Source: Escherichia coli O127:H6 str. E2348/69 (GTDB taxonomy: Bacteria; Pseudomonadota; Gammaproteobacteria; Enterobacterales; Enterobacteriaceae). From it: a stretch of DNA of 64,000 bases. The DNA lies in the NCBI RefSeq assembly GCF_000026545.1, contig NC_011601.1. The stretch is one strand, 5' to 3'. Positions 1 to 3,000 of this stretch are shown piece by piece. Numbering within the stretch: position 1 is the stretch's first letter; each line of letters opens with the position of its first letter. Position numbers: made by a program.

Positions 1-3000
1 GGCATAACAAATAATAAAAACCCGCATCTTATTCCATCCCGATATAACGCTTAGCTCACCAATTGCCACTGCCTTTTTTCCATCACTGGAGAACTAATCA
101 CTGACATTAACAACTCTTTCACTGCCTGTGCCTGTGGTGACAAGTTCGCTCTGGCGGGTAAATTTAAGGACAAAGAGAGACTCATTGAAGGAGTGGTAAT
201 GCGTGACATCCACCCATTTACTGCGCCACATAACGAACGCGCGGCCGATTCGGGTAATACTGCAACGCCCATGCCGCTGGCAATCGCTGCGGTAAGCGTG
301 GCAATAGACTCAATTTCACCAATGACTTTTGCCGTGAGCCGCCGTAGGGAAAAAGCCTCATCAACACGAAGTCTAACAGCGCTGTAATCACTGGGGAGAA
401 AGAGGTTCATTTGCGCAATAGCATTAACATCAACGCTTTGCCCCGGGCAATCTTGAGTTCCTACCAGGAAAAGATCTTCTTTCAGCAAAGCCTGACTGGA
501 TACCCCAGCCACAGGGGAATGCTCATAAATCACCGCCATATCGAGTTGGTGATTTATCAGTTTTTCGTTAAGCACTGCACCACTATTTTCATGAAGATAG
601 ATAACGACCTCCGGGAATTCAGCGCGAACCGCCTGTAATAAGGGCATGGTGATGGATGACGCAGCGGTTCCTGGCGCAAAGCCAATCGAGACTTGCCCCG
701 ATAATGACTGACCAACGTTATGCACCGCCAGTTGGGCCTGCTCACACTGACGTAAAATGGCCCGTGCATGGGTATAGAGAATTTTTCCGGCGTCTGTTGG
801 CGTAACGCCCCGTTTTGTGCGAATCAAAAGCTGTTGATTTAACTCACCCTCCAGTGTGGCAACCTGCTGGCTGAGCGCTGGTTGTGCGATATGCAATACT
901 TCAGCAGCCTGGGTCAGGCTACCAATATCTACAATTTTTACGAAGTATTTCAGGCGTCTGAAGTTCATGTTGCCTCCGGTTTTTAAGAATCGGCCCAAGT
1001 GCCGCCATTACTTACAACCAGAATGCAAGATGCTTGCCAGTTCTATTTTGGCGTTGATGCGCAAGCTAACCAACTGTCAAATAAGAGATCATGATAGATT
1101 CGTCATTGGCCCTTTTTATCAGCAGTCGCATTCACCTGCCCTATAAAAGGAGGGTATGCACCACGATGGTTCATTACCCAATAAGATTGAAAGCTCACCA
1201 CTTTGTTGAAATTGGCAGCAAACAAACAAAAAAATGCATTTCACCCTTTGACATCACCATGCACTGCCATTAATATGCGCCCCGTTCACACGATTCCTCT
1301 GTAGTTCAGTCGGTAGAACGGCGGACTGTTAATCCGTATGTCACTGGTTCGAGTCCAGTCAGAGGAGCCAAATTCAAAAAAGCCTGCTTTCGAGCAGGCT
1401 TTTTACTTTCTAATTACCAACGCTCTTAAAACATCTGTCTTGAACCAGAACTCATTTGCACAGGCATTCCCGATCGATGTTGCAACGCAGCATTTGCGCG
1501 ATTTACATCAACTTCTTGCCCGTTGATAAACGCCCGCAAAGATGGGGTTACCGGCAATGGCACTTTTCGGTCAGACTCATATTCTGCACGATTGCGCGAC
1601 AGCGGCTCATGAACTTCCAGCCACTTTGAACCATCCGGTTCCGTTGTGTATTTCACTGGCTGATCAATAATTTGTACACGAGTGCCTACAGGAACATTAT
1701 CAAACAGATATTTGATATCGTCATTGCGCAGACGAATACAGCCCTGACTTACCCGGAGCCCAATACCAAAATTGGCATTGGTACCGTGGATGGCATACAA
1801 CCTGCCAATATAAATCGCGTACAGCCCCATGGGGTTATCGGGCCCCGCAGGAACAAATGCGGGCAAACTCTCCCCTCGTTTCGCATATTCGCGCCGAGTG
1901 TTCGGCGTTGGCGTCCAGGTTGGTGCTTCTTGTTTACGTTCAACGGTAGTCACCCAGTTACGCGGGGTTTCTCGCCCAGCCTGGCCGATACCAATAGGAA
2001 AGACTTCCACTGTATTACTGTCTGGCGGATAGTAATAAAGACGCATTTCAGCGACGTTAACCACAATCCCTTTACGGACAGTGGCGGGCAAAATCAGTTG
2101 CTGCGGAATGGTGAGTTGTGAGCCAGGCTTCGGCAAAAAAACATCAGCGCCCGGATTCGCTTCCAGCATATTACTTAACCCTTGCCCGTATTGTGCGGCA
2201 AAAGTCTCCAGCGGCTGAGTATTGTGATCAGGAACAGTTACAGTAAGCGACTGCCCCACTAAACGGCTACCCTCTGGAGGTAATGGATAAGTTACCGCCA
2301 GGCTAGTATGGCTGGCAAAAAGCAGAGCAAATGAGCAAAGAATATTTACACGACGCATCATGTCCCTTTCCTATGTCGCGAAAGCTATCCGTTAAGTATA
2401 GCTTTTATCAGACTTTTCGTTTTTAACTGTTCAAATCAGAAGTCGTATTCCCCGGTAGAACAATATTACTGGCAGCAAGTTCGCCCATGTTGTTGTATAT
2501 CGCACAAGCAGCTTCGATGATGGGCATCGCCAGAGCTGCACCACTCCCCTCACCTAAACGCATATCCATATTGAGATAAGGCTCCAGCCCCAAATGCGAC
2601 AGCGCTATACGCGCGCCTTTTTCTGCCGACAAGTGAGAAGGAATGAGATACGGTTTGATTGCAGGAGACATCTGGCAGGCTGCGAGCGCAGCAGCATAAG
2701 AAAGAAATCCATCCAGCAACACGGGTAAACCGCAGGAAGCAGCACCTAACATCACTCCAGCTATTCCGACCAAATCAAATCCACCCACTTTTGCCAGGAC
2801 ATCAACACCATCCTGAGGATTTGGTTGATTTAACGTAATCGCCCGGCGCACAACATCAATTTTATTAGCCAGTTTATCTGTCGGCAGGTTTGCGCCAATC
2901 CCAACCACTTCTTCAGGATCCCAGCCAGTGATTGTGCTGACTATTGCCGCTGCCGGTGTCGTGTTTGCCATCCCCAGTTCACCTACACCAAACAGCGTGA

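What the first reader, a model, noticed from the sequence alone, without database searches (positions are those of the whole stretch)
1000..1060. Sigma-54 promoter driving nac
TGGCAAGCATCTTGCA has exact -24/-12 spacing and lies about 55 nt upstream of the nac start, consistent with the known NtrC/sigma-54 dependence of nac.
Basis: partly seen in the sequence, partly recalled or inferred. Interest (0 to 1): 0.2.

Follow-up and report, generated by a model that had tools for sequence, protein, structure and literature searches.

The report
Known sigma-54 promoter of nac

Summary
Confirmed and already known. The window is the E. coli E2348/69 chromosome. The LysR-type gene on the minus strand (51-968) is nac.

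- **Motif:** TGGCAAGCATCTTGCA lies at 1024-1039 on the minus strand. The GG and GC dinucleotides are 10 nt apart, and the motif ends 55 nt before the nac ATG.
- **Chance:** under a sigma-54 matrix built without nac, it is the best-scoring site in the 64-kb window.
- **Published binding:** the 17-mer CTGGCAAGCATCTTGCA is letter for letter the K-12 sigma-54 ChIP-seq site OS19 (Bonocora 2015). That site has a predicted start 45 nt upstream of nac and is marked experimentally confirmed in EcoCyc.
- **Conservation:** TGGCA-N6-TTGCA is kept in all 80 nac orthologue loci from at least 18 genera.
- **Enhancer:** TGCACCACGATGGTTCA (1157-1173) is the only near-consensus NtrC dyad in the window, centred at -152. 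It is conserved, and when its spacing changes it changes by about one or two helical turns.
- **Extra elements:** a weaker adjacent NtrC-like element sits at 1137-1153, and a candidate Nac autorepression site at 1081-1095.
- **Published NtrC binding:** NtrC ChIP-seq and gSELEX place NtrC at this spacer in K-12.

Limit: the transcription start is inferred, because the primary mapping papers could not be read. Interest is low.

The parts
1024..1040 (-). Sigma-54 promoter element CTGGCAAGCATCTTGCA. The -24 GG is at 1038-1037 and the -12 GC at 1026-1025.
   Evidence: Sequence read; pattern match; top PSSM score in the window. Identical to K-12 ChIP-seq site OS19. TGGCA and TTGCA are invariant in 24 aligned genera and strains and present in all 81 sequences.
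1013..1013 (-). Inferred transcription start (+1), an A 12 nt downstream of the -12 C.
   Evidence: Inference from the -12 position. It matches the rule used by Bonocora et al. (19 bp downstream of the motif centre), which gives 45 bp to the nac start in K-12. No 5'-end data could be read here.
969..1012 (-). 5' leader of nac. With the inferred +1 at 1013 it is 45 nt long. It contains the Shine-Dalgarno GGAGG at 977-973.
   Evidence: Sequence. The block ACAGGAGGCAAAATG is conserved across genera.
51..968 (-). nac coding sequence (305 aa, LysR-type regulator).
   Evidence: ORF; RefSeq annotation; NCBIfam NF008410 equivalog at 600 bits against a cutoff of 309.
1157..1173 (.). High-quality NtrC (NRI) enhancer site TGCACCACGATGGTTCA, centred at -152 from the inferred start.
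   Evidence: It is the only match with at most 1 mismatch to TGCACC-N4-TGGTGCA in 64 kb (0.06 expected). The consensus is quoted in PMC8743547. It is conserved in the orthologues 138-141 bp from the -12 C in 72 of 81 sequences, and 118-119 or 128-129 bp in the rest. It is identical in K-12.
1137..1153 (.). Candidate second, weak NtrC site. It is CCTCCTTTTATAGGGCA in this strain and TACCCCTnATGGGGCA across genera, centred about 20 bp promoter-side of site 1 (about -132).
   Evidence: GGGGCA and CC are at least 90% conserved when the sequences are anchored on site 1 (alignment). Only the promoter-proximal half resembles GGTGCA. Calling it an NtrC site is inference.
1081..1095 (-). Candidate Nac autorepression operator ATCATGATCTCTTAT (ATn-N9-TAT), centred at -75 between enhancer and promoter.
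   Evidence: An ATn-N9-TAT motif is centred at -74 to -76 in 59 of 81 orthologous promoters, and the block is conserved in the alignment. ATA-N9-TAT is the published Nac consensus (quoted). Nac is reported to bind between enhancer and promoter in K. aerogenes (quoted in PMC4740811). Assigning this particular element to Nac is inference.

Best explanation
The element at 1024-1040 (minus strand) is nacp, the sigma-54 promoter of the nitrogen assimilation control gene nac. RNA polymerase carrying sigma-54 binds the -24 GG and -12 GC and sits there as an inactive closed complex. Under nitrogen limitation, phosphorylated NtrC binds the dyad at 1157-1173 (about -152). It probably also uses the weak adjacent site at 1137-1153 to assemble an oligomer. 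NtrC then contacts the polymerase by looping out about 140 bp of DNA and uses ATP hydrolysis to open the promoter. Transcription starts near 1013, giving a 45-nt leader before the nac ATG at 968. Nac protein probably damps its own synthesis by binding between enhancer and promoter, most likely at the conserved ATn-N9-TAT element at 1081-1095.

What is shown: the motif, its statistical standing, its conservation, the NtrC dyad with its conserved and helically phased spacing, and identity to the K-12 sequence for which binding data are published. What is inferred: the exact start site, the role of the second NtrC-like element, and the identity of the Nac operator.
For: - **Motif and spacing:**
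- **Best site in the window:** leave-one-out PSSM.
- **Published sigma-54 binding:** identical to K-12 ChIP-seq site OS19 (FAT 24, 45 bp from nac, EcoCyc 'confirmed'), which that paper used as a positive control for nitrogen-limited induction. K-12 and the window are identical at every element.
- **Conservation:** TGGCA-N6-TTGCA is present in all 80 orthologue loci, 53-59 nt before the ATG (46 nt in Pseudocitrobacter).
- **NtrC dyad:** unique in the window and conserved at 138-141 bp from the -12 C in 72 of 81 sequences. The exceptions are shorter by 21-22 bp (Kluyvera group) or about 11 bp (Pseudocitrobacter), which is two turns or one turn of the helix.
- **Published NtrC binding:** an NtrC ChIP-seq peak at nac-cbl with enrichment 59.6; gSELEX peaks for the RpoN holoenzyme and for NtrC in the nac/asnV spacer; NtrC up-regulates nac in ChIP-exo/RNA-seq work.
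- **Function in circuits:** nacp works as an NtrC-driven sigma-54 promoter in synthetic circuits.
- **No competing signals:** no sigma-70-like promoter on the nac strand, and no IHF consensus between enhancer and promoter.
- **Gene identity:**
Against: Nothing contradicts the reading, but it has limits.
- No 5'-end mapping data could be read here, so +1 at 1013 is inferred.
- All binding experiments cited were done in K-12 or K. aerogenes, not in E2348/69.
- The motif departs from the strict consensus at one position (TGGCAA rather than TGGCAC).
- The second NtrC-like element has only one good half-site.
- The -75 element is missing from 19 of 81 orthologous promoters.
Confidence: 0.97

Rival explanations
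1. The match is a chance occurrence of a sigma-54-like string with no promoter function, and nac is transcribed from somewhere else.
For: The bare core pattern has a second match in the window, inside pduP. Several other strings score 14-17 bits. In 11 of 200 shuffles some site somewhere scores as high.
Against: The motif is invariant in all 80 orthologue loci at a fixed distance from the ATG, while the flanking spacer diverges. It is identical to a ChIP-seq-bound K-12 site. A conserved NtrC dyad lies at enhancer distance. No sigma-70-like promoter was found on this strand.
Confidence: 0.01
2. The feature that matters is the inverted repeat GCAAG-cat-CTTGC (1025-1037), acting as an operator for a dimeric protein or as an RNA or DNA hairpin, rather than the -24/-12 elements.
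For: The consensus scan flagged 1025-1037 as a terminator-like stem on both strands. The arms are a perfect 5-6 bp inverted repeat.
Against: The symmetry is not conserved. The Enterobacter, Lelliottia and Huaxiibacter sequences read TGGCATTCATATTGCA or TGGCATCCATATTGCA, which keep GG, GC and the spacing but lose the arms. The stem lies upstream of the inferred start, so it would not be in the nac mRNA. The T-run after it is poor. The partial symmetry follows from the similarity of the TGGCA and TTGCA consensus blocks.
Confidence: 0.01
3. It is a real sigma-54 promoter, but in this strain it is driven mainly by an enhancer-binding protein other than NtrC, or by NtrC acting from solution rather than from the 1157-1173 site.
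For: The role of the dyad in E2348/69 was not tested experimentally. Sigma-54 promoters can be cross-activated, and the synthetic-circuit paper reports activation of nacp without a linked UAS.
Against: The dyad matches 13 of 14 specified NtrC consensus positions and is unique in 64 kb. It is conserved with helically phased spacing. NtrC binds this spacer in K-12 by ChIP-seq and gSELEX.
Confidence: 0.02

Closest known systems
nacp of Escherichia coli K-12 (Muse & Bender 1998; sigma-54 ChIP-seq site OS19 of Bonocora et al. 2015)
   Same: The 17-mer CTGGCAAGCATCTTGCA, the NtrC dyad, the weak second element, the leader and the start codon are all identical. The 45-bp distance from the predicted start to nac is the same, and so is the neighbouring divergent asnV gene.
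   Different: There are about 15 substitutions in the 340 bp compared, and all fall outside the core sequences of the recognised elements; one falls in the spacer of the -75 element. The host strain is the EPEC strain E2348/69 rather than K-12.
nac promoter of Klebsiella aerogenes/pneumoniae (Feng, Goss, Bender & Ninfa 1995)
   Same: The overall architecture is the same: a sigma-54 core, an upstream NtrC enhancer at about -150, and a Nac site reported between enhancer and promoter (quoted). The K. pneumoniae locus L078 has TGGCAAGCAAATTGCA 56 nt before the ATG and an NtrC-like dyad 140 bp from the -12 C. My recollection that the enhancer is one strong site plus one adjacent weak site fits the two elements seen here, but that paper could not be read.
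   Different: The spacer sequences between the elements have diverged. The NtrC dyad differs (TGCACCGTTGTAGTGCG in K. pneumoniae). The exact position of the Klebsiella Nac footprint could not be checked against 1081-1095.
glnAp2 and glnKp, the other NtrC-dependent sigma-54 promoters of E. coli
   Same: They share the same -24/-12 core type and the same activator acting from upstream dyads by DNA looping.
   Different: From general knowledge, glnAp2 has two strong NtrC sites and responds at lower NtrC levels. The papers quoted describe nac and glnK as needing higher NtrC levels, which fits one good site plus one poor one here. Unlike glnHp2, nacp has no recognisable IHF site.

Membership tests
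Sigma-54 (RpoN) dependent promoter | GG at -24 and GC at -12 separated by exactly 10 nt, within a TGGCAC-N5-TTGCW-like context. | tested here: met
   TGGCAAGCATCTTGCA at 1024-1039 has one departure from the consensus. It scores 17.54 bits under a leave-one-out PSSM, rank 13 of 42 among the real promoters.
Sigma-54 (RpoN) dependent promoter | Correct orientation and a short distance upstream of a gene, conserved in orthologues. | tested here: met
   It is on the same strand as nac, 55 nt before the ATG. It is present in all 80 orthologue loci at 53-59 nt, or 46 nt in Pseudocitrobacter.
Sigma-54 (RpoN) dependent promoter | Occupied by sigma-54 holoenzyme in vivo or in vitro. | not testable with these tools
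   This is published for the identical K-12 sequence: ChIP-seq OS19 with FAT 24 and RpoN-holoenzyme gSELEX. It has not been measured in E2348/69.
Sigma-54 (RpoN) dependent promoter | Transcript 5' end about 12 nt downstream of the -12 GC, and dependence on rpoN. | not testable with these tools
   EcoCyc status 'experimentally confirmed' is quoted in PMC4591121. The primary paper, Muse & Bender 1998, is not held.
NtrC (NRI) enhancer | A 17-bp dyad resembling TGCACCAnnnTGGTGCA. | tested here: met
   TGCACCACGATGGTTCA at 1157-1173 matches 13 of 14 specified positions. It is the only match with at most 1 mismatch in the window, against 0.06 expected.
NtrC (NRI) enhancer | Located about 100-150 bp upstream of the sigma-54 core, with the helical face conserved. 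| tested here: met
   It is centred at -152. The distance to the -12 C is 138-141 bp in 72 of 81 sequences, and 118-119 or 128-129 bp in the other 9, which is shorter by about 2 turns or 1 turn.
NtrC (NRI) enhancer | At least two adjacent sites that allow NtrC to oligomerise. | tested here: inconclusive
   A strongly conserved element lies 20 bp promoter-side (1137-1153). Only one of its half-sites (GGGGCA) resembles the consensus, and no binding data could be read.
NtrC (NRI) enhancer | NtrC binding demonstrated. | not testable with these tools
   Published for K-12: a ChIP-seq peak at nac-cbl and a gSELEX peak in the nac/asnV spacer.
Nac (LysR-type) operator for autorepression | An ATA-N9-TAT-like dyad located between enhancer and promoter. 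| tested here: inconclusive
   ATC-N9-TAT at 1081-1095 is conserved as ATn-N9-TAT at -74 to -76 in 59 of 81 loci. A perfect ATA-N9-TAT at 1143-1157 is confined to E. coli. The Klebsiella footprint coordinates could not be read.

The most novel reading that the evidence does not exclude
The comparative footprint may hold small new points about a well-known promoter.
- The most strongly conserved block of the enhancer region (TACCCCTnATGGGGCA, 1137-1153) might be the site of a different, unidentified factor rather than a weak second NtrC site.
- The Kluyvera group and Pseudocitrobacter have deleted about two turns or one turn of the helix between enhancer and promoter. In Kluyvera this removes the candidate Nac operator, so nac autorepression may have been lost or rebuilt in those lineages.
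Probability: 0.12. Interest if true: 0.25.

Novelty: already known. Interest (0 to 1): 0.07.

Why it matters
It does not change anything known. nac is the link by which the sigma-54/NtrC nitrogen-starvation response reaches sigma-70 genes, and its promoter has been studied since the 1990s. The value of this check is that it shows a tool-free reader can correctly call a sigma-54 promoter and predict where its enhancer lies. It also gives a clean anatomy of the promoter in an EPEC strain: core, NtrC dyad at -152, second element at -132, and candidate Nac site at -75. That anatomy is backed by an 80-locus footprint, including the observation that spacing changes come in whole helical turns.

Tried and rejected
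- **Primary papers.** I tried to read Muse & Bender 1998, both Feng et al. 1995 papers, Reitzer & Schneider 2001, Bender 2010, Atkinson 2002 and Zimmer 2000. None is held. The mapped start and the Klebsiella footprints are therefore cited only second-hand or from memory.
- **Perfect ATA-N9-TAT at 1143-1157 as the Nac operator.** Downgraded. The pattern is common in the window (23 matches against 14 expected), and this copy is not conserved outside E. coli.
- **Palindrome TTGCTG(C/A)CAATTTCA(A/G)CAA (1203-1221) as part of the nac enhancer.** Rejected. It sits exactly 83 bp from the tRNA-Asn 5' end in 68 of 69 loci but 40-53 bp from the NtrC site, so it belongs to the divergent asnV promoter.
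- **IHF site between enhancer and promoter.** No match with up to 2 mismatches, against about 1.4 expected by chance.
- **Terminator-like hairpin at 1025-1037.** Rejected because the symmetry is not conserved.
- **Sigma-70 promoter for nac.** None found on the minus strand in 900-1450.
- **TTG at 998 as the nac start (longest ORF).** Rejected in favour of the ATG at 968, which has a conserved GGAGG and is the annotated start.
- **Supplementary tables of the Nac/NtrC ChIP-exo paper.** Not held.

Full report
**What the window is.** The first 2400 bases are 100% identical to the chromosome of E. coli E2348/69 (EPEC O127:H6). RefSeq annotates them as nac, tRNA-Asn and ldtA. The minus-strand ORF ending at 968 is Nac: it matches the NCBIfam equivalog NF008410 over its full length at 600 bits, against a cutoff of 309. 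ARAGORN finds tRNA-Asn(GUU), which is asnV, at 1295-1370 on the plus strand. The 326-bp spacer from 969 to 1294 therefore lies between two divergent genes.

**The observation.** TGGCAAGCATCTTGCA is on the minus strand at 1024-1039. GG (1038-1037) and GC (1026-1025) are separated by 10 nt, the canonical sigma-54 geometry. The motif ends 55 nt before the nac ATG (968-966).

**Is it more than chance?**
- The core pattern TGGCA-N6-TTGCA occurs twice in 64 kb on both strands, against 0.47 expected.
- A looser consensus with two mismatches is not enriched at all: 11 found against 13.8 expected. Pattern counting alone is therefore weak evidence.
- I built a PSSM from the 41 other intergenic-sense sigma-54 ChIP-seq motifs of Bonocora et al., leaving nac out, and scored every position. 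The nac site is the top score in the window at 17.54 bits, and ranks 13th of 42 among the real promoters. In 11 of 200 shuffles some site somewhere reaches that score.
- Falling by chance in the roughly 100 nt in front of one particular gene is about a thousand times less likely still (inference).

**Published evidence for the same sequence.**
- Table 1 of Bonocora et al. 2015 (PMC4591121) lists sigma-54 ChIP-seq site OS19 with the motif CTGGCAAGCATCTTGCA. It is on the minus strand, has gene b1988 nac downstream, a fold-above-threshold score of 24, a predicted start 45 bp from the gene, and EcoCyc status 'experimentally confirmed'. The text calls it 'previously described', citing Muse & Bender 1998, and uses it as the positive control for induction under nitrogen limitation.
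- The window has the same 17-mer at 1024-1040. The same rule (start 19 bp downstream of the motif centre at 1032) gives +1 at 1013, which is 45 nt before the ATG.
- A pairwise alignment of K-12 MG1655 and the window over 341 bp is 98% identical. The core, the NtrC dyad and the leader are identical. The substitutions fall between these elements, apart from one in the spacer of the -75 element.
- The 212-bp promoter region is present in 5416 of 5426 complete E. coli genomes.

- The NtrC consensus quoted in the literature is TGCACCAnnnTGGTGCA (PMC8743547).
- The window contains TGCACCACGATGGTTCA at 1157-1173. This is the only match in 64 kb with at most one mismatch, against 0.06 expected. All other matches need three mismatches and occur at chance frequency.
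- Its centre (1165) is at -152 from the inferred start.
- NtrC binding at this locus is published for K-12. There is a ChIP-seq peak assigned to nac-cbl with one of the highest enrichments in that table, 59.6 (PMC4066584). gSELEX peaks for NtrC and for the RpoN holoenzyme fall in the nac/asnV spacer (PMC8743547). ChIP-exo plus RNA-seq work lists nac among NtrC-activated genes (PMC9853098).
- nacp has also been used as a working NtrC-dependent sigma-54 promoter in synthetic enhancer circuits (bioRxiv 10.1101/086108).

**Comparative test.** A scan of one genome per species returned 80 nac orthologue loci at 80-98% protein identity. They come from Escherichia, Citrobacter, Enterobacter, Klebsiella, Raoultella, Kluyvera, Kosakonia, Lelliottia, Leclercia, Pluralibacter, Phytobacter, Siccibacter and others.
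- **Core:** in every locus TGGCA-N6-TTGCA lies 53-59 nt before the ATG, or 46 nt in Pseudocitrobacter. In a 24-sequence alignment the columns T-G-G-C-A and T-T-G-C-A are invariant, while the surrounding spacer averages 59% column identity.
- **NtrC dyad:** it is present at 138-141 bp from the -12 C in 72 of 81 sequences. The nine exceptions are the Kluyvera-group loci at 118-119 bp and two Pseudocitrobacter at 128-129 bp. The alignment shows these are deletions of about 21-22 bp and about 11 bp between enhancer and promoter. Those lengths are two turns and one turn of the helix. This is what one expects if the enhancer must stay on the same face of the DNA as the polymerase.
- **Second block:** this one is even better conserved. 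It reads TACCCCTnATGGGGCA (CCTCCTTTTATAGGGCA in the window, 1137-1153) and is centred 20 bp promoter-side of the dyad. Its GGGGCA half resembles the NtrC half-site GGTGCA, and the other half is poor. I read it as the weak partner site that lets NtrC oligomerise. This fits my recollection that the Klebsiella nac enhancer is one strong site plus an adjacent weak one. That recollection is from memory, and the assignment is inference.
- **Third block:** ATCATGATCTCTTAT (1081-1095) is an ATn-N9-TAT motif centred at -75. A motif of this form lies at -74 to -76 in 59 of 81 loci. ATA-N9-TAT is the published Nac consensus (quoted). Nac is reported to repress the Klebsiella nac promoter from a site between enhancer and promoter (quoted in PMC4740811). 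This is therefore the best candidate for the autorepression operator, but it is unproven. The Kluyvera deletion removes its 3' half.
- **IHF:** no IHF consensus, even with two mismatches, lies between enhancer and core.

**Mechanism.**
- Sigma-54 holoenzyme binds 1024-1040 as a closed complex. Binding to the identical K-12 sequence is shown in the literature.
- NtrC~P binds 1157-1173. The sequence evidence is shown here, and binding is shown in the K-12 literature. Assembly with the help of 1137-1153 is inferred.
- NtrC then loops to the polymerase and opens the promoter. This step is established knowledge for NtrC-dependent promoters.
- Transcription starts near 1013 (inferred), giving a 45-nt leader with a conserved GGAGG 5 nt before the ATG.
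- Nac then limits its own synthesis from a site between enhancer and promoter. The mechanism is published for Klebsiella, and the site is inferred here.

**Rivals.**
- A chance match is excluded by conservation and by the published binding data.
- The partial palindrome GCAAG-cat-CTTGC, which the simple scan flagged as terminator-like, is not conserved in genera that keep GG, GC and the spacing. It also lies upstream of the start.
- No sigma-70-like promoter is detectable on the nac strand.
- Activation by a different enhancer-binding protein is unlikely, given the unique, conserved NtrC dyad and the published NtrC binding.

**Comparison with the known, and verdict.** This is not merely like the K-12 nac promoter. 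It is the same promoter in another E. coli strain, and orthologous to the Klebsiella nac promoter. All sequence-level defining features of a sigma-54 promoter with an NtrC enhancer were tested and met. The biochemical features (occupancy, start site, rpoN dependence) cannot be tested with these tools and rest on the literature for the identical K-12 sequence. Novelty: already known. Interest: low.

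Noticed in passing
window 1203-1221 (with the asnV promoter at 1248-1276 and tRNA-Asn at 1295-1370): There is a strongly conserved 7-5-7 inverted repeat, TTGCTG(C/A)-CAATT-TCA(A/G)CAA. 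Its centre is exactly 83 bp from the tRNA-Asn 5' end in 68 of 69 loci, but a variable 40-53 bp from the NtrC site. It therefore belongs to the divergent asnV promoter (TTGACA-17-TAATAT), at roughly -71 from the likely asnV start. That is the classic position of a Fis/UAS site in stable-RNA promoters. It matches only 9 of 13 specified positions of a Fis consensus. A related TGTTGA...GCAAAC element lies upstream of the neighbouring tRNA-Asn gene in L001.
   Followed up: partly
window 43557-43573 (-): CTGGCACGGATGCTGCT scores 17.33 bits with the sigma-54 PSSM, almost as high as nac. It lies in the sense orientation inside a 468-aa minus-strand ORF (42399-43805). I did not identify that ORF; from its size and position I guess it is gnd. 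The motif is not among the K-12 ChIP-seq motifs printed in Bonocora et al..
   Followed up: partly
window 18538-18554 (-): CTGGCAGGCAAATTGCA is the second exact TGGCA-N6-TTGCA match (16.48 bits). It lies antisense inside pduP (17624-19009, +). A poor NtrC-like string (3 mismatches) sits about 45 bp away at 18486-18502. K-12 appears to lack this gene, so no ChIP data exist for it.
   Followed up: partly
window 4345-4361 (-) and 21050-21066 (-): Two further sigma-54-like strings are present. CTGGCACGACATTTTCG scores 14.1 bits, lies about 52 nt upstream of the cobS ATG at 4293, and has no GC at -12. CTGGCGCAGACGTTGCA scores 15.1 bits. All eight best PSSM hits in the window are on the minus strand.
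   Followed up: no
window about 17600-19000 and neighbours: The window carries a pdu (propanediol utilisation) gene, pduP, downstream of cobT and cobS. The pduP segment is found in only 644 of 5426 complete E. coli genomes, so this part of the window is accessory.
   Followed up: no
L054 (CACSKA010000001.1): A record titled 'Chryseobacterium sp. 18061' carries an 82%-identical nac with the full enterobacterial promoter architecture. The assembly is probably mislabelled or contaminated.
   Followed up: no
L037, L047-L049, L058, L060, L064 (Kluyvera and related loci); L052, L056 (Pseudocitrobacter): Deletions of about 21-22 bp and about 11 bp between the NtrC enhancer and the sigma-54 core keep the helical phase. 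The Kluyvera deletion removes the 3' half of the candidate Nac operator.
   Followed up: partly
window 46358-46376 and 47378-48668: A very AT-rich stretch with many ATA-N9-TAT matches and an (AT)n run stands apart from the rest of the window in composition. I did not examine it.
   Followed up: no
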